Of a stretch of 26,219 bases of DNA, positions 1,545-19,111 are shown piece after piece. Under the pieces are notes generated by a model. That model searched no databases, was not told the DNA's origin, and was given only the letters and a program-made list of their open reading frames with translations. How positions within the stretch are numbered: position 1 is the first letter of the stretch; each line of letters opens with the position of its first letter. Source of the DNA: an uncultured Gammaproteobacteria bacterium (lineage in GTDB: Bacteria; Pseudomonadota; Gammaproteobacteria; Xanthomonadales; SZUA-36); assembly GCA_965652335.1 (NCBI GenBank), contig CBFGWJ010000001.1, positions 1 through 26,219 on the forward strand, read 5' to 3'. The translations under genes were made by a program, and so were the position numbers.

Positions 1545-2531
1545 TCACCAATGATCGACCAGGGTCGGCCAGCTTTCCATACCATCACCTTGAGTTTTCC
1601 TCGTCCAGAGATATTGAGCCGGGCGTGGTGGCGAAGGGCAATCCGCAGTTGTCCCCTGGCCTGATGTCTTCACCTTCAGTTCTGTTGCGAATGAATTGGC
1701 TGTCAGCTGAGTGATGCCATGGCTCTGATTGTGATCGACGTAGTTAACCTGGGAGATGAACACCACATAGTCATTCCCGGGCTTGAGTGTCATGGCCGGC
1801 ACGGTGGCTGACGTATCATTGAAGTCGACAAAATCCTCGTCGGTACCCGGTGCGCCGCCGGTGTAAACGACATCGCCACGGCAGTCGGAAACCAGCACGA
1901 ATATGAGGTCATCCCATTCGGTTCCTTCCAGGGTGGCACCGATGCTGAAAGGATCCCAGGACACGACCAGGGGCAAATCGGCATCCAGTTCCATCACGTT
2001 ATCAACCGGCGCACCGTTCTGATGCAGGCGAATGGTGCTGACCGGAGGAATCTGGGTCTTTCCTTCAGGGCCGCCAATCCGCACCGGGTCGAGCGTGAAA
2101 TGGCCGTTAGGTCCTTCGATCTCCCAGACATAGGTTTGCGTGGGTGAATGAACGGTTTCAAGGCTTGCCAGGTCATCGAAAGACCGGGTCTTGCGGGTGT
2201 AGAAATAGCCATTGGTAAACGCCCGCTTGTCCTTCCCGCCGTAGTCAGCCAGTGAGTCCATAGTGTCGCCGCGATACAGGGTTGCGGAAATGGCATCAAA
2301 ATCCCGCTCACTGTCAAAAATGATTTCTGCCAGGAAATGGACATCCGTCAGGTGCAACTGCCCTTCCTGGTTTTGTTCGTAGGTCAGGTATTTTTCAACC
2401 CAGGTCATGGTCACATCGGGGCTCTGGGTTGTGCCGGCAGTACCATCCTGTGCTTCGGCCTGAAAAGGCACCTGGCAGAGTGACGCCAGCACCAGCAGAG
2501 AGGTTGTTCGCAAGTTTCCTGACAGGTTCAT
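1545..2531 (-). CDS. Hypothetical secreted protein (signal peptide, acidic, beta-rich)
   Basis: 328-aa ORF with RBS GGAGGA (reverse complement of 2541-2546) and an N-terminal hydrophobic stretch ending AEA-Q. It starts 39 bp downstream of the ALDH stop. No family recognised. Confidence 0.75.
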   Translation of the reverse strand: MNLSGNLRTTSLLVLASLCQVPFQAEAQDGTAGTTQSPDVTMTWVEKYLTYEQNQEGQLHLTDVHFLAEIIFDSERDFDAISATLYRGDTMDSLADYGGKDKRAFTNGYFYTRKTRSFDDLASLETVHSPTQTYVWEIEGPNGHFTLDPVRIGGPEGKTQIPPVSTIRLHQNGAPVDNVMELDADLPLVVSWDPFSIGATLEGTEWDDLIFVLVSDCRGDVVYTGGAPGTDEDFVDFNDTSATVPAMTLKPGNDYVVFISQVNYVDHNQSHGITQLTANSFATELKVKTSGQGTTADCPSPPRPAQYLWTRKTQGDGMESWPTLVDHW

Positions 2532-5658: not shown

Positions 5659-6741
5659 TCAGTCGAGCTTGACGATACCATTTCTCACGATTTCCCGGTC
5701 ATCTACCCGGACGGTCGGGCGAAGCACCTGTACATCCCAGTGGACCGATGATTTCGAGGTGCGGAAATCCGCCCCGACAAACGGTGCCAGCAAGCTGTTG
5801 TCGCCAATGCCGAACACCATGCCGCCGCGCACGCGCTCCCATTCCAGGTGCTCGGTCAGGCGGGCATGGCGGCTGAGCCCGATGTTGGCGTGGATGGGAC
5901 CGTTGCGGCAACCTCCGTCATTGACCTCATCCAGCCAGCCTTCGAGCCGGTGCGCAATATACGGGTCGCCGCTGATGTGGGTGATCTGCCCGGCCTCGAC
6001 GGTAAGCATCACCGGCTGCCTGGGAATGTGATGCACATTCTCATAGAGGAACAGGCCATCCAGGGCCAGTACGCCATCACCCCTGCCTTGCGGAATCACC
6101 ACGCCCGGAGTGGCGCCCGGCGTGAACTGGTAGTTGGATACCCAATCATTCGATTCGCGATCCCACAGGAACCCGTCGAAGCTGTCGCCCTTCAGGTCAC
6201 TGATATCAACCGTGTAGTCCGTTCCTTCTTTTGACGTGACATGCAGGGTTTTGCCCACGGTCATTATGGCTGCCGCCGCCAGCGCCTCCTTGCGGATGGT
6301 GAACGGGTCATCCAGCAGCAGGCAGCGGATGAGCGAATCATCCATATGCGGCGCACCGGTGGCATCACCCGGGCCGATGATCCGGGCCCGGCCGCGCTGC
6401 ACGATTTTGACCATGAAGTCGGCATAACCAATGGCCATATCCACCACCAGGTCTGCATGCTCCGCCGCTGCCAGGATGGCGCTGGAAAAAAGCGGGTCCC
6501 AGGTAAAGCCGGGTTGGTAGGCCGGGTGTGGCCCCATCGGTACGCGCATTTCCAGCACTTCGGCATTGAACTGCATGGCAACGCCGGCAAAAGCCGTGGT
6601 GATGTGCTGGGGCGTGTGGGAATCGCTGATGATGAGCACGCGCCATCCCGGCTGGAGATTGCATTGCTCGCGGAATATAAAATGAATCGCCTTGAGCAAT
6701 TCGGGCCTGAGATTGACGCTGACATCAGAATATTCAGCCAT
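5659..6741 (-). CDS. Peptidase M29-fold metalloprotein, NicX (2,5-dihydroxypyridine dioxygenase)-like, paralog 1
   Basis: 360 aa with RBS GAGGA. Motifs VLIISD, ADLVVD, LHVTS..GTD, G.L.LDG, LTVE.G.IT.I.G, GPIHANIG and VHWD...P..VDD..IV..G fit the M29/NicX fold. The fold call is more secure than the activity. Confidence 0.7.
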   Translation of the reverse strand: MAEYSDVSVNLRPELLKAIHFIFREQCNLQPGWRVLIISDSHTPQHITTAFAGVAMQFNAEVLEMRVPMGPHPAYQPGFTWDPLFSSAILAAAEHADLVVDMAIGYADFMVKIVQRGRARIIGPGDATGAPHMDDSLIRCLLLDDPFTIRKEALAAAAIMTVGKTLHVTSKEGTDYTVDISDLKGDSFDGFLWDRESNDWVSNYQFTPGATPGVVIPQGRGDGVLALDGLFLYENVHHIPRQPVMLTVEAGQITHISGDPYIAHRLEGWLDEVNDGGCRNGPIHANIGLSRHARLTEHLEWERVRGGMVFGIGDNSLLAPFVGADFRTSKSSVHWDVQVLRPTVRVDDREIVRNGIVKLD

Positions 6742-12292: not shown

Positions 12293-13372
12293 ATGAGCAT
12301 GATTTCACCCGATGTTTCCTCCCGGCTCAAGCCTGACCTGATTGCCGTGGTCAAGCTGATCTATGAACAGAACTGCAATCTGCAGGCCGGCCAGAACGTA
12401 CTGATCATCAGTGATGCCCGCACTCCGCACTACGTGGTCGCCACCTTCCAGGGTATGGCCCTGGCCATGGGGGCGGAAGCCGTGACCATGGAATGCCGGA
12501 TTCCCACCGGGGGCGCCACTTACCAACCCGGCTCAAAGTGGCCTGCCATGCTGGCCGCAGCAGCCATGGAGGCCGATCTCATCATCGACATGGCGGTGGG
12601 TTACGCCGACTTCATCATCAAGGCCATTCACAATGGCGCCAGGGTGCTGTGCCCGGGCGACGGTATTGGCGGCCCGTTCATGGACGATGTGCTGATCCGC
12701 ACCATGCTTCACACCGACATCCACGCGATACGCCGGCATGCCAAGCGCATCGCCCGAAGGTTTACCGACGCTTCCGTCTGCACGGTAATGACTGGCGATG
12801 ATGTGCTGGAGATCGACCTGACTGGCGTGGAGGGCATCGCAGGCTGCGGCTTCCTCTGGGACCCGGATGAACAGGACTGGATGTCCACCTGGGATTTCCT
12901 TCCACCCGCCCAACCGGGCATTGCGGTGCCGAAGGGTCGGGGCAATGGCTCCATCTGGGTGGACGGCACCCTGCTTTACCACCCGATCTATCATGAGAAG
13001 CCCGATTCGCCGGTGAGACTGACCTTCAAGGATGGACGGCTTGTAGCCATCGGCGGAAACGATGTGCTGGCCCCGCGGTTGGAAGCCTGGCTGGCGAAGC
13101 TGGGTGACGAGGGTGCCTACAACGGCCCGGTGCATCTCAACATCGGCAACAATCCGAACGCGATGTTGACCCAGAGCCAGGAATGGGAGCGGGTGTATGG
13201 GTCCATTACCTGCGGCATGGGCGATTTCAGTTTCGTGAACGCACTCGACCCCAGCATACCCCTGGAAACGCTGAGCAAGTCAACGGTGCATTGGGACTGG
13301 ACCGTACTACAACCCAGGATTTTCCTTGATGATGACCTGATCGTCGAACGCGGCAACATTTTATGCGATTGA
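12293..13372 (+). CDS. Peptidase M29-fold metalloprotein, NicX-like, paralog 2
   Basis: 359 aa, colinear with 5659..6741 (CNLQ.G, VLIISD, DMA.GYADF, GFLWD, EWERV.G). Carries GPVHLNIG and VHWD. Confidence 0.7.
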   Translation: MSMISPDVSSRLKPDLIAVVKLIYEQNCNLQAGQNVLIISDARTPHYVVATFQGMALAMGAEAVTMECRIPTGGATYQPGSKWPAMLAAAAMEADLIIDMAVGYADFIIKAIHNGARVLCPGDGIGGPFMDDVLIRTMLHTDIHAIRRHAKRIARRFTDASVCTVMTGDDVLEIDLTGVEGIAGCGFLWDPDEQDWMSTWDFLPPAQPGIAVPKGRGNGSIWVDGTLLYHPIYHEKPDSPVRLTFKDGRLVAIGGNDVLAPRLEAWLAKLGDEGAYNGPVHLNIGNNPNAMLTQSQEWERVYGSITCGMGDFSFVNALDPSIPLETLSKSTVHWDWTVLQPRIFLDDDLIVERGNILCD

Positions 13373-13823: not shown

Positions 13824-13857
13824 ACCTGAGTAAAAGCAGGCAAAAAAGACAGAAAGG

Positions 13858-13895
13858 TCCCCGGTAAGCCCAAAGCTTCCCGGGGATTTTTATTT
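13858..13895 (+). terminator. Rho-independent terminator of csp
   Basis: TCCCCGG (13858-13864) pairs with CCGGGGA (13880-13886); inner AAGC/GCTT stem; followed by TTTTTATTT. Confidence 0.85.
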
Positions 13896-13928
13896 GCGCG
13901 CTCCGCGTGGCCGGACCGTGGATTTGGT

Positions 13929-13988
13929 TTCGCCTGAATATTCGGCTGAGTATTCGCCTGAATTTTCGTCTGAATTTTCGCCTGAATA
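13929..13988. repeat. Five tandem 12-bp repeats, consensus TTCGCCTGAAT(A/T)
   Basis: Units: TTCGCCTGAATA, TTCGGCTGAGTA, TTCGCCTGAATT, TTCGTCTGAATT, TTCGCCTGAATA. Confidence 0.92.
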
Positions 13989-14104
13989 GTCGGGCCGGCA
14001 TCCGCCGGCACACCTGGTCCTGGCCCTGTGGATGGCCACGTATTCCCTGTGTCACCCTGAAGCAGATTCCCACGGGTTTCGCATTCCCGGCATTTTCAAC
14101 AGGC

Positions 14105-14130
14105 AAAAAAAACCCGGCGGGTCGCCGGGT
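14105..14130 (-). terminator. Rho-independent terminator on the minus strand with no assigned upstream gene
   Basis: ACCCGGCG (14112-14119) pairs with CGCCGGGT (14123-14130). The A8 run at 14105-14112 gives a U8 tail on the minus strand. Confidence 0.85.
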
Positions 14131-14517
14131 CAGTTTCGAGTGATGATGTCCTGAATCACTGAGACACAGAGTCCATCTATTTTTGGATCCGGCCAAGTTC
14201 CCCCCAGGCCTTCTCCTTTCTTGCCTGTCCCCCATGCATTCTTTAGCAACATGAACAAGCTAATAACCTGTACTTTCTCTATCTCTGCCAGAGGCAGTAC
14301 AACTGATCTTTTGTCAGTTTGCAGGTGGCGAATTTCTGTCCAGTACATGGATGACCGGCTTTTTCTGGCCTTACCTGCATTGTCATCCATGACAAAAAAT
14401 CTTTTTTGGTCTTCATTCCCCGGATTTCCGATCCAGGTTGGGAAGAGACGGACCCTCGTTTGGGCAAAGAGGGGCGAGGATCCGTCTCGTCCCACTAACT
14501 GCTACCAGTCAGTTAGT
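14105..14517 (-). ncRNA. Candidate structured small RNA (unassigned); 5' end uncertain
   Basis: At least six inverted repeats (for example 14346-14355/14382-14391, 14439-14494 and 14494-14517) lie upstream of the orphan minus-strand terminator. The region is low in GC and has no convincing CDS. Confidence 0.35.
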
Positions 14518-14765
14518 TCGCAAGTATTAAAGCAAGAAGCGGGCCAAAATTGAGAAATATGGATAACGTATTGTAAATAAAAAGAAAAAAAACTTTTTTC
14601 GGCTCCAGATCGCTGGCGTAAGTACGGTTCCGTTGTCGGAGTCTGTCAGCGGCATGACAATATTTGTCACATCAACATCCGGCATCGGGCATCGCTGGCG
14701 ACCAACTGCCCCCAACCCAGACATGTCGCCAGCAACGCCGCCTTCTGCGCCTGTACAATTCGCAC

Positions 14766-15707
14766 ATGACCATCACGGCACCTGCAACCAGGCTCATATT
14801 CCTTCTGGGCATCGTTTGCTCGGAAGCGGTACTCGCCCAGGCTTATGTGCTTCCGCCCGGAAACCCCGGCCTGGTGGGCCGTGTCGAGACCATTCGAACC
14901 TTCGGGCAGGAAACCCTGGTAGACGTGGCCCGGCAGTACAACATCGGCCACGAGGAAATCCGCCTGGCCAACCCGGCGGTGGAATTCTGGCTGGTGAAAG
15001 ATGGTACCGAAGTGCTGTTGCCCAGGCGCCACGTCCTGCCATTGGCCAAACGCGAAGGCATCGTACTGAATGTTCCGGAGATGCGGATTTATTATTTTCC
15101 CAAGCCGTGCAGCGCCGAAGACAATTGCGAGATGCTCACGTTTCCGGTCAGCATCGGGCGGATGGACTGGCAAACTCCACTGGGTGAGACGCGGGTGACC
15201 CGGAAAGTGAAGGATCCTTCATGGATTCCCCCCGAGTCCATCCGGCGGGAGGCCGCGCTGGAGGGCCGCGAGTATCCGGCGGTAGTGCCGCCGGGACCGG
15301 ACAATCCGATGGGCGCCTATGCCCTTCACCTGGGGCTTCCGGGTTACCGCATTCATGGCACCAACCGTCCGAGCGGAGTAGGAATGCGCGTGACACATGG
15401 CTGTGTTCGCATGTATCCCGAAGATATCGAGTTCCTGTTTGGAATGGTTGAGGTCGGTACCCTGGTACAAATCGTCAGCCAGGAAATAAAACTGGGCTGG
15501 GATGGTGACATCCTGTTCATGGAAGTACATCCGCCACTGGAAGAAAACTATCGTTCAGTGGAAACCTTGAAGGATGAAGCGCTGCTCGAGTTGCAGAAGG
15601 TTGCCCAGGAGCGTCCTTTCACCCTGGTGGGCCGGGAGTTCCAGCATGCGTTTGAGCAGATGAACGGGATACCCGTGCCGGTTGGCCGGGCCATTCGAGG
15701 GGAATAG
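14766..15707 (+). CDS. L,D-transpeptidase, ErfK/YbiS/YcfS/YnhG family, with LysM-like N-terminal module
   Basis: Signal peptide from the ATG at 14766 (ORF track starts at 14664). Motifs LV.VARQYNIG..EI..ANP, LN.PEMRIYY, FPVSIG, P.W.PP.SIR, PGPDNPMG and IHGT..GMRVTHGCVRM. Confidence 0.92.
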   Translation: MTITAPATRLIFLLGIVCSEAVLAQAYVLPPGNPGLVGRVETIRTFGQETLVDVARQYNIGHEEIRLANPAVEFWLVKDGTEVLLPRRHVLPLAKREGIVLNVPEMRIYYFPKPCSAEDNCEMLTFPVSIGRMDWQTPLGETRVTRKVKDPSWIPPESIRREAALEGREYPAVVPPGPDNPMGAYALHLGLPGYRIHGTNRPSGVGMRVTHGCVRMYPEDIEFLFGMVEVGTLVQIVSQEIKLGWDGDILFMEVHPPLEENYRSVETLKDEALLELQKVAQERPFTLVGREFQHAFEQMNGIPVPVGRAIRGE

Positions 15708-15736
15708 GAAGCAGGGCTGGTCGCAGCCCTGCTTCC
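15707..15736. terminator. Perfect 13-bp hairpin between the convergent ldt and lpp genes
   Basis: GGAAGCAGGGCTG-gtcg-CAGCCCTGCTTCC. There is no U-tract on either strand, so terminator function is uncertain. Confidence 0.5.
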
Positions 15737-15772
15737 CGGAAGGTGTCGGCTAGCCTGTTCCAGGCGTGCGGA

Positions 15773-16063
15773 TCATCCTTTCTGCATGGATTTCTTGAAC
15801 ATGTTGTCAATCTTGGCGTCGGTGGCCTCCGCTGCCGCTTTGGCGTCCATGGCCGCTTTTTCAGCCCGCTCGGCAGCCTGGCGTGCCGCGGTGGCTTCCT
15901 GCATGGCGGAGTCAGCCTTGGCACTCGCGGCATTGGCGCTGGCCGTTGCGCTCTGGACTTCAGAACGGAGTTTTTCAACTTCCGCGGTGGTTGCGCATCC
16001 GCTCAGCATCAAAACGGCTGAAAAAACGAGCAAGATCAACGATCCGTTACGAACTTGTTTCAT
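15773..16063 (-). CDS. Lpp/OprI-family alanine-zipper outer-membrane lipoprotein
   Basis: Lipobox LSGC, Ala-rich heptad coiled coil, C-terminus KIDNMFKKSMQKG, and RBS AGGAG. Confidence 0.9.
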   Translation of the reverse strand: MKQVRNGSLILLVFSAVLMLSGCATTAEVEKLRSEVQSATASANAASAKADSAMQEATAARQAAERAEKAAMDAKAAAEATDAKIDNMFKKSMQKG

Positions 16064-16215
16064 GTTTGGCTCCTGATTGGCAAAGGCAACCGGAATGTGC
16101 GGTCAATAACCGGGTTGCCATCACTCAGCGTAAATGACCGCATTCTTTCAGGTTACCACGTAAATTCCTCAATGTTGATGCGTCAGGTCAACTATTCGGC
16201 GTTAATATTGAGCGT

Positions 16216-16791
16216 TCAGCGCACCTCTACCCGCGTTCCCGGCTTGATCCAGCGGGCCAGTTCGTCGACCTGCTCATTGGTGAGCGCAATGCATCCCTCC
16301 GTCCAATTGAAATCCTCGTGGATCTTCGGGTCGCCGGAGCCGATACCGTGAATCCCGATGTAACCGCCCAAGGGTGTGTCGGCCGGTGGCTCCCGCCCGC
16401 GAAGATGGGCCAGGTTGATGGCCTGCCATTGCTCCGACGAGATGGCCCTGGCCTTCAAGGCCGCCGTGGCCTGGTCCATGGTGGGGTAATCAAAGCCGAA
16501 GTACAGGTGATAACGGCTGTCGGTGTTGATGCGGCGGATACGATAGCTGCCCAGCGGCGTTGTCTGGTCACCAAGCCGCCTGGCGCGGCTCACGCCGTTG
16601 CGGCCGATGGCTATGTCGTCAAATGTGTGGGAAACCGTCTGGCCATCCATGACGTGAAGCGTCAGCGTCGAGGTATCGACGTCCAGCCAGACTTCACCGG
16701 CTGATGCGCCGGGCGACAGCAGAAAACAACAGGCCAGCAGCGCAGTCAATCGCCGGAAGCCGGCCCAGCCGAATGTGGCCATGTGATTCAC
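16216..16791 (-). CDS. YkuD-fold enzyme of the YafK (DpaA/LdtF)-like subgroup
   Basis: Signal peptide; GDQTTPLGSYRI, SRY....DYP, IGIHG and WTEGCIALTN (catalytic His/Cys). No LysM or PG-binding domain. Confidence 0.8.
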   Translation of the reverse strand: MNHMATFGWAGFRRLTALLACCFLLSPGASAGEVWLDVDTSTLTLHVMDGQTVSHTFDDIAIGRNGVSRARRLGDQTTPLGSYRIRRINTDSRYHLYFGFDYPTMDQATAALKARAISSEQWQAINLAHLRGREPPADTPLGGYIGIHGIGSGDPKIHEDFNWTEGCIALTNEQVDELARWIKPGTRVEVR

Positions 16792-16845
16792 TGTCCGGAT
16801 GCGGCCGAAGGCGCTTTCCTGCCAATACGTTTCTATGGTTCCTCC

Positions 16846-18546
16846 CTACTGCGCCAGCGACTTCATGGGCGAAGTCATTGGTAAAGTCATCGGCGCAGTC
16901 ACCGGCGCGTCGAGTAATTCCAGTACGGCCGGGTCGCGCTGGTAAACATCCGGATAGAACTGGGCCTGGCCGGTTTCATCCAGGGCGGCGGTAAGATAGA
17001 GAATCATCACCGGCAGGGGCTTCTCCAGAATCACCCGCCGGGTCTGGCCACGACGAAGTATTTCCTCGAGTTCGGCCACAGTGAAATTCTGCCGCTTCTG
17101 CAGCACCAGTTCCACCAGCCGGAACGGATTCTGCACCCGGATGCAGCCTGAACTGAAACTTCGCGCTGATTGCTCGAACAGCGCCTGGTTCGGTGTGTCG
17201 TGCATGTAAACCGAATATGGGTTTGGAAAAATGAATTTCACCCGCCCAAGCGCATTGTTGGGGCCGGGTTCCTGCCGCAGGGTGAACGGAAAAGTCCTGC
17301 CGGTGTGTTGCCAGTCAACCGTTGAAGGATCGACGCGCTTGCCACGGCGGTCGATGACCGAGATATTCCGCTCCGCCAGGTAACCGGGATTTTTGCGAAT
17401 GGCTGGAAGTGTGTCTTCGCGCAGAATGGTCGGCGGAATCGTCCAGTCCGGGTTGAACTCCACGTAAGTCATCAGGCTGCGGAAAACGGGCGTGCGGCGA
17501 TAGGGTGTGCCCACGATCACCTTCGTGGTCCATTCGATCTCCTGGCCTTTCACATAGGCCAGCCGGAACCCGGCGATGTTGACGGCGATGAATTCTTTGT
17601 CGGCATTGTGATCCAGCCAGCGCAAGCGCTCGAGCGACAGGCGCAACTGGTTTACCCGGGTTGCCGCGTCCACATTCATTGCCGCCAGGGTTTGCTTGCC
17701 CACCAGGCCGTCCGAAACCAGCCCGTGCCGGGACTGGAATCGCATTACCGCATGCTCCAGTTCTTCGGTAAATGAGTCGTGGGTGGAGTCGAGGGAGGAT
17801 TGCAGTTCACCGGTCACCTGCAGGCGTTTGCGTATCGCAATCACGCGCGGGTCACGATCATTCCTCCGCAGCGTTGGTCCAACCGGAACATGTGGCCAAC
17901 CGCCATGGGCTGCGAATGCACGGTAAACGTCCAGCTGCCGGCGCAGCACCTCGTAGTAGTGCGCCGTGGGTGCCTGGGCATCGATGAACCCGGCCAGGTC
18001 ATCCGCCGCAATGGCCTGCCGCAGCAGTTCGTCCGGTGGCAGGTCAGCAGAGTGATCGCGTTCGAAGTTGAATTCCGGGTACAGTTCGCCCGGATGCACC
18101 TTGCCTTCCCGGCGGTGGTGAATGTACAGCAGGATGCCGTCACTCAGCAGCACATCCAGCGCCGCCGCTGCAGCCGGATCCGCCGTTCTGCCGAGCAGCC
18201 CGGTGATAGCCGGCAGGTGGTAATCCCGAGGCTGCAAACCATATTCGATCGCCCCGCCGAGCGCCGCAACCGCTTGTTTGACCTGGCGGTCTCTGGCCCA
18301 CAATGGGTGGAACTGATGCTGCTTGTAGATTGCCAGCAGCGCATCCTGCATGTGCAGGGGCTCATGCAGGATGGCCGCGGGTGAGGCGCGCAGTATGTCT
18401 TCGAGCTGCTGGCTGGAAGCCGGTTGGAATCCGGCAGCCGCCGGGTCCGGCCCCGGTGACCGTTGCTGGAAATGGACCTGGGCACACCCCGCCAGTGCCG
18501 AAGCATTCAGCAGCAACGGGAGCAGAAGTGTTTTTATGCCATGCAC
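16846..18546 (-). CDS. ldtD: L,D-transpeptidase LdtD/YcbB family with peptidoglycan-binding domain
   Basis: Scaffold domain, PG-binding AV.RFQ.RHGL..DG.VG..TL, VNIAGF, VIVG.P.R.TP, PGP.NALG.VKF.FPN, YMHDTP and SSGCIRV. Confidence 0.9.
   Translation of the reverse strand: MHGIKTLLLPLLLNASALAGCAQVHFQQRSPGPDPAAAGFQPASSQQLEDILRASPAAILHEPLHMQDALLAIYKQHQFHPLWARDRQVKQAVAALGGAIEYGLQPRDYHLPAITGLLGRTADPAAAAALDVLLSDGILLYIHHRREGKVHPGELYPEFNFERDHSADLPPDELLRQAIAADDLAGFIDAQAPTAHYYEVLRRQLDVYRAFAAHGGWPHVPVGPTLRRNDRDPRVIAIRKRLQVTGELQSSLDSTHDSFTEELEHAVMRFQSRHGLVSDGLVGKQTLAAMNVDAATRVNQLRLSLERLRWLDHNADKEFIAVNIAGFRLAYVKGQEIEWTTKVIVGTPYRRTPVFRSLMTYVEFNPDWTIPPTILREDTLPAIRKNPGYLAERNISVIDRRGKRVDPSTVDWQHTGRTFPFTLRQEPGPNNALGRVKFIFPNPYSVYMHDTPNQALFEQSARSFSSGCIRVQNPFRLVELVLQKRQNFTVAELEEILRRGQTRRVILEKPLPVMILYLTAALDETGQAQFYPDVYQRDPAVLELLDAPVTAPMTLPMTSPMKSLAQ
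16862..16909 (-). repeat. Four imperfect 12-nt coding repeats at the LdtD C-terminus (P-V/M-T/K-x)
   Basis: Plus-strand units TTCATGGGCGAA, GTCATTGGTAAA, GTCATCGGCGCA and GTCACCGGCGCG encode the ...APVTAPMTLPMTSPMK tail. Confidence 0.6.
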
Positions 18547-18580
18547 AGGCCGGTCATGATTTGCCAGGTGCCAGGATGGG

Positions 18581-19111
18581 CTACCAGTAACGCGGACGTC
18601 CTGTGTCGATGTGCACGAAATCCGACTCGGCGTAGTAACCCACTCCGCCCAGCTTCAGCGAACGGGCGGTGTCTCGCAAAAAAGCCGTATCCAGGCCGCG
18701 CAGCCGTACGTCGATGGCGTTGCCGTCGATGTGCTGGCTGGATTGCGCCACGCCGCTGGTGGAGCTTCTCAGCATTTCATTGGTTTGTGGCGAACGGTAG
18801 GCGGAAATCACTTCAAACGTATCATCATTGCCGGTCATCCGCTGGATCTGCCACAGGATATCGAACAATGCCGGGTCGATATCCTGTTGCTCCGCAGTCC
18901 GCCAGTCGGCGAGAAACGCTTTCAGGTCCGTCAACGCTTCCGCGTCATAGTTGCCGTTCCGGAAATAGCTGGCTTCAATGCTCCGGCCCGTATGTGTGTG
19001 GTAGAACTTCAGCGTACGTGTTTCCGGAACATTGCCGAAGCTGCCCGTGGCGACCAGCAGCCCGGCGAACAAGCCGGCGGTCAATGCCAACCTCCGGGTT
19101 CCCCGAGACAT
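18581..19111 (-). CDS. mepK: YcbK/MepK family (DUF882, peptidase M15) murein endopeptidase
   Basis: Start at the ATG at 19111; the ORF-track extension overlaps ilvE. Twin-Arg-like TRR leader, SAYRSP.TN, SQH......ID (H-x6-D), and GVGYY..S.FVHIDTG..R.W. Confidence 0.9.
   Translation of the reverse strand: MSRGTRRLALTAGLFAGLLVATGSFGNVPETRTLKFYHTHTGRSIEASYFRNGNYDAEALTDLKAFLADWRTAEQQDIDPALFDILWQIQRMTGNDDTFEVISAYRSPQTNEMLRSSTSGVAQSSQHIDGNAIDVRLRGLDTAFLRDTARSLKLGGVGYYAESDFVHIDTGRPRYW

What the first reader, a model, noticed from the sequence alone, without database searches (positions are those of the whole stretch)
14766..19111. Contiguous write/erase cluster for L,D-peptidoglycan chemistry around an Lpp-like gene
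Seen: five adjacent genes, namely an ErfK-type Ldt (+) converging on lpp, a YafK-like gene, ldtD and mepK (all minus). Known from E. coli: ErfK/YbiS/YcfS attach Lpp to peptidoglycan, DpaA (YafK) detaches it, LdtD makes 3-3 crosslinks and MepK cleaves them. There only ldtD-mepK are neighbours. Inference: both opposing enzyme pairs and their lipoprotein substrate are gathered in one locus, which would be a compact envelope-remodelling module.
Basis: partly seen in the sequence, partly recalled or inferred. Interest (0 to 1): 0.68.

Follow-up and report, generated by a model that had tools for sequence, protein, structure and literature searches.

The report
Braun-type tether trio beside crosslink pair
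A Braun/OprI-type outer-membrane lipoprotein sits between the enzyme type that welds it to the cell wall and a related enzyme predicted to grip its tip and cut the weld; this trio is old and widespread, while the two extra crosslinking genes beside it are a recent, local neighbour.

Summary
All five genes are real, in an uncultured Wenzhouxiangellaceae genome. They are two units, not one conserved module. (1) A trio: small DpaA/Csd6-branch YkuD hydrolase, Lpp/OprI-type alanine-zipper lipoprotein, and a converging ErfK-type transpeptidase. It recurs in Nitrosomonas, Halomonas, methanotrophs and Ectothiorhodospiraceae; all 13 of 94 family genomes with the lipoprotein have the whole trio. This scan had already reported such trios on other DNA. 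(2) A mepK-ldtD pair, in reverse of E. coli's order. The five-gene join was found only here and in a 98.5%-identical sister; one unrelated genome has all five in another order (chance about 0.18). New here: a complex model docks the hydrolase on the lipoprotein's conserved C-terminal tip (0.73 against 0.00 for controls); the lipoprotein-linked hydrolase clade mostly lacks DpaA's essential Lys83; and in a ten-genome clade the acceptor lysine is no longer terminal (KG, KSG, KGN; one origin). Most likely an attach/detach tether cassette like Pseudomonas OprI-LdtPae2-LdtPae3; no activity is shown.

The parts
14766..15707 (+). ErfK/YbiS/YcfS/YnhG-type L,D-transpeptidase, 313 aa, signal peptide, catalytic motif THGCVR; predicted to attach the lipoprotein to meso-DAP
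   Evidence: PF03734 E 9e-24; 35-42% identical to E. coli LdtA/B/C/E; model matches Klebsiella 4LZH, TM 0.80; best PDB sequence match 9TYW E 5.5e-72
15707..15736 (.). Perfect 13-bp hairpin between the two converging stop codons; possible two-way terminator or RNA-stabilising stem (no U run)
   Evidence: I10; folding z -4.3, 0 of 200 shuffles
15773..16063 (-). Lpp/OprI-family alanine-zipper lipoprotein, 96 aa; lipobox LSG-C23, Ala at +2, 74-residue mature rod, conserved tip KIDNMFKKSMQK95 followed by Gly96
   Evidence: PF11839 E 9e-13, NF040598 73.5 bits over cut-off 43; 31% to E. coli Lpp; strong AGGAG site; tip conservation
16216..16782 (-). Small secreted YkuD enzyme of the hydrolase branch, 188 aa; His145, Cys164, motif TEGCIA; predicted to bind the lipoprotein tip and release it from the wall
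   Evidence: PF03734; profile best hits DpaA 8IKR, Bd1075, Pgp2; model pLDDT 94, nearest folds Pgp2/Csd6; complex model 0.73 vs 0.00
16846..18546 (-). LdtD (YcbB)-like 3-3 crosslinking transpeptidase, 566 aa; Scaffold, PG_binding_1 and YkuD domains, motif SSGCIR
   Evidence: NF007891 290 bits, under cut-off 425; 30% to E. coli LdtD over 553 aa; catalytic His/Cys kept
18581..19111 (-). MepK (YcbK)-like M15 endopeptidase, 176 aa; His127, Asp134, His167
   Evidence: PF05951 E 1e-52; NF053624 176.7 bits, just under cut-off 185; 40% to E. coli MepK; metal ligands match

Best explanation
The core is a three-gene outer-membrane tether cassette. The lipoprotein is lipidated at Cys23, sorted to the outer membrane and forms an Lpp-like coiled-coil rod. 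The converging ErfK-type enzyme cleaves the mDAP-D-Ala bond of a tetrapeptide stem and transfers the tripeptide onto the side-chain amine of Lys95. The small upstream YkuD enzyme, which has Ala instead of Arg two residues after its catalytic Cys, recognises the conserved tip of the rod and hydrolyses the mDAP-Lys bond, so the tether can be reset. The mepK-ldtD pair makes and cuts 3-3 crosslinks as in E. coli; it came to lie upstream of the trio by a recent rearrangement in this one lineage, possibly allowing read-through but with no evidence of selection as a unit. Shown: gene content, order, motifs, distribution. Modelled: hydrolase-lipoprotein contact. Inferred from E. coli and Pseudomonas: all four enzyme activities and the covalent link.
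For: Trio adjacency in 40 of 91 hydrolase homologues and hydrolase-lipoprotein adjacency in 27 more; in an independent class sample chosen by the lipoprotein, 18 of 27 have the converging Ldt, 10 of 27 the upstream hydrolase, 4 both directly. In the family, 13 of 94 genomes have the lipoprotein and all 13 have the full trio. Lys at the tip in 55 of 55 linked lipoproteins checked. Cys-x-Ala invariant, and DpaA Arg108, Tyr109, Tyr131, His135, Cys143 matched; the carboxypeptidase Trp (Csd6 Trp158) is an invariant Gly (PMC10653827). Complex model of three lipoprotein copies plus hydrolase: 0.73, best of 3 controls 0.00 (mark reached by 58 of 80 solved and 2 of 110 mismatched pairs, counts only roughly valid for my own alignments; runs agree in at least 65% of contacts; partner pLDDT at least 91); contacts fall on the lipoprotein's last 17 residues and on the enzyme's family-conserved IAIGRNG strand and the loop between His145 and Cys164. 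An OprI-like gene in G237 has the same converging Ldt. Recent join: congeners G001, G002, G003 and G021 hold mepK-ldtD without the trio, and 11 other family genomes hold the trio without it.
Against: DpaA Lys83, whose loss abolishes activity (PMC10653827), is Ala67 here and Lys in only 4 of 73 members of the linked clade, against 18 of 18 in the unlinked sister group; 66 of 73 have Lys/Arg one residue later, but that it substitutes is untested. By fold the enzyme is closer to the carboxypeptidases Csd6 and Pgp2 (Z 15.4, 15.3) than to DpaA (Z 10.3). One of three complex runs scored 0.18 and the catalytic His/Cys are not among the confident contacts. Lys95 is not terminal. Attachment and 3-3 crosslinking cannot be told apart by phylogeny (PMC10434034). 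LdtPae3's release activity is itself only tentatively assigned (PMC10434034).
Confidence: 0.62

Rival explanations
1. The small YkuD is not an eraser but an L,D-carboxypeptidase (Csd6/Pgp2/ElsL-like) or a lipoprotein-guided trimming enzyme: it removes D-Ala4 from stems near the lipoprotein and so limits donor supply for tethering instead of cutting finished tethers.
For: Nearest folds are Pgp2, Csd6 and Bd1075; profile E-values for DpaA (2.5e-7) and Bd1075 (4.4e-7) are tied; Lys83 missing; Cys-x-Ala is shared by both activities (PMC8263019).
Against: The aromatic D-Ala pocket residue (Csd6 Trp158) is an invariant Gly in 91 of 91 homologues, which opens room for a larger leaving group (PMC10653827); 22 of 63 family members hit the DpaA model NF040599 (best 2.7e-13) against 7 for ElsL (best 1.2e-5); the model puts the lipoprotein tip at the active-site loop.
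Confidence: 0.15
2. In this clade the lipoprotein is not covalently tethered: the Gly-containing tail after Lys95 blocks transfer, and the ErfK-type enzyme works like LdtE (3-3 crosslinks or D-amino-acid exchange), which in E. coli also sits converging on lpp without being an attachment enzyme.
For: E. coli lpp/ldtE layout; a C-terminal Lys is described as necessary for the Lpp box (PMC12274547); 83 of 87 lipoproteins surveyed first end in Lys, so a tail is unusual.
Against: The Lys is kept in all ten tailed genomes across four genera while the tail varies in length and codons; internal-lysine attachment is reported for Coxiella LimB and Legionella Lpg1810 (PMC12729407, PMC11841132); the genome has a separate LdtD for 3-3 links and no other YkuD gene.
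Confidence: 0.13
3. One reading: all five genes form one selected, co-regulated write/erase module for L,D-chemistry.
For: The lineage's whole YkuD set and its only MepK lie here; four genes are on one strand with 34-152 bp gaps and no terminator-like site between them; unrelated complete genome G080 also has all five within 8.1 kb.
Against: Found only in G000 and G005 (98.5% DNA identity over 19 kb); in none of 79 other genome-contig loci with up to 8 kb flank, nor in 11 other family trios. G080 has another order and a 3.7-kb diguanylate-cyclase insert; 1 of 32 genomes with both markers, chance about 0.18. ilvE and a histidine kinase lie just as tightly upstream (20 and 64 bp).
Confidence: 0.12

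Closest known systems
Pseudomonas aeruginosa OprI with LdtPae2 (anchoring) and LdtPae3 (YafK-like, proposed release) (PMC10434034)
   Same: Alanine-rich Lpp homologue with a tip lysine, an ErfK-lineage attachment enzyme, and a small Cys-x-Ala YkuD enzyme; an OprI-like gene in G237 has the same converging Ldt.
   Different: Here the presumed eraser is directly upstream of the lipoprotein (from my own knowledge it is unlinked in P. aeruginosa; not checked); it has a 28-residue helical insert and lacks the Lys83 equivalent; the lipoprotein is longer (74 mature residues) and ends Lys-Gly; 3-3 links come from an LdtD-type protein.
E. coli Lpp, LdtA/B/C, DpaA (YafK/LdtF) (PMC8263019, PMC10653827, bioRxiv 10.1101/2021.02.24.432682)
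   Same: Same predicted chemistry; lpp also converges on an ErfK-lineage gene (ldtE); DpaA Arg108, Tyr109, Tyr131, His135, Cys143 and Ala145 are matched.
   Different: dpaA, ldtA, ldtB, ldtC are scattered in E. coli; only 25% identity to DpaA; Lys83 absent; lipoprotein is PF11839, not PF04728.
E. coli ldtD-mepK pair
   Same: Adjacent same-strand genes with the same domains and catalytic residues.
   Different: Order reversed (mepK first), as in five other family genomes and in 0 of 29 class-wide mepK loci, 17 of which have E. coli's order.
L,D-carboxypeptidases Csd6, Pgp2, Bd1075
   Same: Closest solved folds, Cys-x-Ala-type hydrolase branch, long L1 and L3 loops.
   Different: No aromatic D-Ala pocket residue before the catalytic His (Gly143); single small domain.

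Membership tests
Lpp/OprI lipoprotein tether | Lipobox with Cys and outer-membrane sorting residue at +2 | tested here: met
   LSG-C23, Ala24; LPAM_1 weak hit
Lpp/OprI lipoprotein tether | Short alanine-rich coiled coil matching the family model | tested here: met
   NF040598 73.5 bits over cut-off 43; PF11839; profile hits solved Lpp variants
Lpp/OprI lipoprotein tether | C-terminal lysine as last residue | tested here: not met
   Lys95 is followed by Gly96 in G000 and G005; KG, KSG or KGN in 10 of 13 family members
Lpp/OprI lipoprotein tether | Covalent link to meso-DAP | not testable with these tools
   needs muropeptide mass spectrometry
DpaA/YafK amidase | Ala or Asn instead of Arg two residues after the catalytic Cys | tested here: met
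   TEGCIA; Ala in 91 of 91 homologues
DpaA/YafK amidase | Essential Lys83 in loop L1 | tested here: not met
   Ala67; Lys in 4 of 73 linked-clade members, 18 of 18 in the unlinked group; Lys/Arg at the next position in 66 of 73
DpaA/YafK amidase | Tyr109 and Tyr131 cleft residues; no carboxypeptidase Trp | tested here: met
   Tyr91, Tyr141, Gly143
DpaA/YafK amidase | Match to curated model NF040599 | tested here: inconclusive
   window protein no hit; 22 of 63 family members hit weakly, best 2.7e-13
Csd6/Pgp2 L,D-carboxypeptidase | Aromatic D-Ala pocket (Csd6 Tyr133 and Trp158) | tested here: not met
   Trp158 position is invariant Gly by sequence alignment through DpaA Met133 (PMC10653827)
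Lpp-attaching Ldt (LdtA/B/C, LdtPae2) | ErfK lineage, His-Gly...Cys-x-Arg motif, full fold | tested here: met
   THGCVR; TM 0.80 to 4LZH
Lpp-attaching Ldt (LdtA/B/C, LdtPae2) | Attachment rather than 3-3 crosslinking activity | tested here: inconclusive
   E. coli A/B/C/E form one clade apart from the window protein; PMC10434034 says lineage does not separate the two
LdtD (YcbB) | Scaffold, PG-binding and YkuD domains with catalytic His/Cys | tested here: met
   NF007891 under cut-off
MepK (YcbK) | M15 fold with His, Asp, His metal ligands | tested here: met
   PF05951; His127, Asp134, His167 against E. coli His133, Asp140, His173; NF053624 8 bits under cut-off
Conserved five-gene module | Same five genes together beyond near-identical genomes | tested here: not met
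   only G000/G005, plus G080 in another order

The most novel reading that the evidence does not exclude
A distinct, widespread clade of YkuD hydrolases detaches alanine-zipper lipoproteins by gripping the protein's coiled-coil tip, rather than through DpaA's Lys83 contact with the peptide stem, and in one clade the tether is made through a non-terminal lysine. That would give many 'Lpp-less' bacteria (Nitrosomonas, Halomonas, methanotrophs) a reversible covalent outer-membrane tether and supply a substrate for DpaA-like enzymes found without Lpp.
Probability: 0.35. Interest if true: 0.66.

Novelty: new variant of a known kind. Interest (0 to 1): 0.44.

Why it matters
Covalent lipoprotein tethering is described for a subset of Gammaproteobacteria (about 3% of genomes by PF04728), and DpaA-like enzymes without Lpp were left unexplained (PMC8263019). 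That survey used the Lpp Pfam family; the PF11839/NF040598 lipoprotein here matched 64 of 250 sampled class genomes (the model also matches E. coli Lpp). The trio names writer, substrate and eraser in one place, so the question can be tested with three genes in a laboratory strain. The missing Lys83 and the buried acceptor lysine test two stated rules of this chemistry. The five-gene cluster itself adds little: it is a convenient single locus, not a conserved system.

Tried and rejected
Five-gene module: looked for ldtD/mepK beside 80 genome-contig homologues, 11 other family trios and 20 widened class loci; found only in G005 and, rearranged, in G080. Co-variation test of the lipoprotein tip motif with an adjacent hydrolase in the class sample: 7 of 10 against 8 of 17, p 0.42, and kin are not independent: no support. 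Fusion of hydrolase and lipoprotein among ten long homologues: none. Tree of ErfK-type proteins could not assign attachment versus crosslinking. The hydrolase tree is the quick version; DpaA is on a very long branch, so its position is not reliable. Synonymous/non-synonymous counts for the hydrolase and ldtD were misaligned and are discarded. Rfam: nothing. Promoter and terminator scans: no more than shuffles. Tried to identify PDB 9TYW by fold search: not in that library. No paper on the trio was found in ten searches, but subscription papers are missing. L145 (probable false match) and unpublished G076 were left out of neighbourhood counts; G076 is among the 64 matches.
Full report
Observation. 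Pfam and NCBIfam agree. The nearest named relatives are uncultured Wenzhouxiangellaceae. The three YkuD genes are the only ones in this 74.7%-complete assembly and in the 100%-complete sister G005.

In E. coli K-12, lpp and ldtE are converging neighbours 63 bp apart, so the lipoprotein-Ldt layout is not special. E. coli has ldtD then mepK; here mepK comes first, as in G001, G002, G003, G005 and G021 of this family and in none of 29 class-wide mepK loci, 17 of which have E. coli's order.

The five-gene join is recent. G005 has the same cluster but is 98.5% identical over 19 kb. Congener G002 has the trio and the mepK-ldtD pair on different contigs with other neighbours; G001 and G003 have only the pair; eleven other family genomes have the trio with no ldtD or mepK in the DNA fetched. 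None of 79 other genome-contig loci, with up to 8 kb of flank, has them (some are cut by contig ends). One complete genome from another family, G080, has all five within 8.1 kb, as ldtD-mepK-ErfK facing hydrolase-lipoprotein across a 3.7-kb GGDEF/EAL insert. That is 1 of 32 sampled genomes with both markers; chance alone gives at least one about 18% of the time. So a pull toward clustering is possible but not shown.

The trio is old and widespread. Of 91 hydrolase homologues, 40 are in the full trio, 27 more are directly upstream of the lipoprotein and 24 stand alone; carriers include Nitrosomonas, Halomonas elongata, Methyloprofundus, Thiogranum and Ectothiorhodospiraceae. Starting instead from the lipoprotein in an even sample of 250 class genomes, 64 match NF040598; among the 27 best usable loci, all end in Lys, 18 have the converging Ldt, 10 the upstream hydrolase and 4 both directly, with two more split by short inserts. 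In the family, 13 of 94 genomes have the lipoprotein and all 13 have the trio, so it is gained or lost as a block. This scan's earlier notes report similar trios in Geobacter, Nitrospirota, a myxobacterium and an alphaproteobacterium (not checked by me). I found no paper describing the trio.

What the small YkuD is. It has Ala, not Arg, two residues after Cys164, the mark of non-transpeptidase members (PMC8263019), in 91 of 91 homologues. A family profile ranks DpaA (2.5e-7), Bd1075 (4.4e-7) and Pgp2 (1.4e-5) first among solved structures. The model (pLDDT 94) is nearest to Pgp2 and Csd6, with DpaA lower. Residue tests from the DpaA structure paper (PMC10653827) are mixed. Arg108, Tyr109 and Tyr131 are matched, and the carboxypeptidase Trp is an invariant Gly, which favours an amidase. 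But Lys83, essential in DpaA, is Ala67. It is Lys in 18 of 18 members of the unlinked sister group and only 4 of 73 in the lipoprotein-linked clade, 66 of which have Lys or Arg one residue later. That is a single evolutionary split, not many. So it works like a DpaA-branch hydrolase but is not a textbook DpaA.

Complex model. Three lipoprotein copies folded with the hydrolase scored 0.73, best of three controls 0.00; that mark was reached by 58 of 80 solved complexes and 2 of 110 mismatched pairs, counts that hold only roughly for my own alignments. Runs scored 0.75, 0.18 and 0.73, agree in at least 65% of contacts, partner pLDDT at least 91. Contacts involve only the lipoprotein's last 17 residues (Lys84, Asn87, Met88, Phe89, up to Lys95 and Gly96) and, on the enzyme, the IAIGRNG strand (Arg61, Asn62) and the loop between His145 and Cys164 (Phe158, Asn159, Trp160). 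Both surfaces are conserved (Met88 54 of 55, Phe89 52 of 55; Arg61 69 of 73, Trp160 73 of 73), and Ile59, Asp151 and Phe158 differ in the unlinked group. I know of no solved DpaA-Lpp complex (the DpaA paper used docking), but a pass from likeness cannot be excluded. The model supports binding, not catalysis, and His145/Cys164 are not among the confident contacts.

The lipoprotein tail. Lys95 is followed by Gly. Ten family genomes in four genera end KG, KSG or KGN with differing codons and form one clade (100/99) on a tree of the two flanking enzymes, with Lys-ended members basal. The Lys is always kept. A terminal Lys is described as necessary for the Lpp box (PMC12274547), but internal-lysine links exist (LimB, Lpg1810: PMC12729407, PMC11841132). 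Either the side-chain amine is used in place, or the tail is trimmed, or tethering is lost in this clade.

The writer. The ErfK-type protein has the transpeptidase motif and fold. Phylogeny cannot separate attachment from 3-3 crosslinking (PMC10434034). Its best PDB match, 9TYW, shares its active-site stretch with the Ldt next to an OprI-like gene in G237, so it may be Pseudomonas LdtPae2; I could not verify this. With an LdtD present for 3-3 links and no other YkuD gene, attachment is the likelier job (inference).

Verdict. Observation confirmed, interpretation partly supported. The chemistry is known from E. coli and P. aeruginosa. The five-gene cluster is a local juxtaposition of a conserved tether trio and a crosslink pair. 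The value lies in the trio as a testable answer to what DpaA-like enzymes do without Lpp, and in two departures from the rules (no Lys83, non-terminal acceptor Lys). New variant of a known kind; interest 0.44.

Noticed in passing
G080:C1:3218250-3226400 (L189:7254-15395): Complete genome of another gammaproteobacterial family with all five genes in 8.1 kb in a different order, split by a PAS-GGDEF and EAL insert.
   Followed up: partly
window 18490-18546 (-): The LdtD-like protein has a lipobox-like LAG-C at residue 21 in G000 and G005 but not in congeners; it may be lipid-anchored in this lineage only.
   Followed up: partly
window 13824-14765: 940-bp low-GC spacer between the cold-shock gene and the ErfK-type gene, with five to six 12-nt tandem repeats (13928-14006) and several hairpins (14096-14146, 14439-14494); no Rfam match.
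   Followed up: partly
L204, L214, L219, L220: In four class genomes mepK lies directly downstream of a divergent ErfK-like YkuD gene instead of ldtD.
   Followed up: no
L064, L071, L073, L083: Nitrosomonas europaea and eutropha keep the linked-clade hydrolase but have no lipoprotein gene beside it, unlike most other Nitrosomonas.
   Followed up: no
PDB 9TYW and 9TZ4: Recent entries for an ErfK-type Ldt (322 aa) and a 59-aa major outer-membrane lipoprotein are the best or near-best matches; possibly Pseudomonas LdtPae2 and OprI, unverified.
   Followed up: partly
window 1545-2531 (-), 5659-6741 (-), 12293-13372 (+): Three long ORFs (328, 360, 359 aa) with no confident Pfam family (the last a faint M29 peptidase hit), amid aldehyde dehydrogenase, MFS, TonB receptor, TPR-sulfotransferase and LysR genes: a possible uptake and catabolism cluster.
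   Followed up: no
P0018, P0024, P0016: Some hydrolase homologues carry 100-250-residue low-complexity N-terminal extensions with no known domain.
   Followed up: partly
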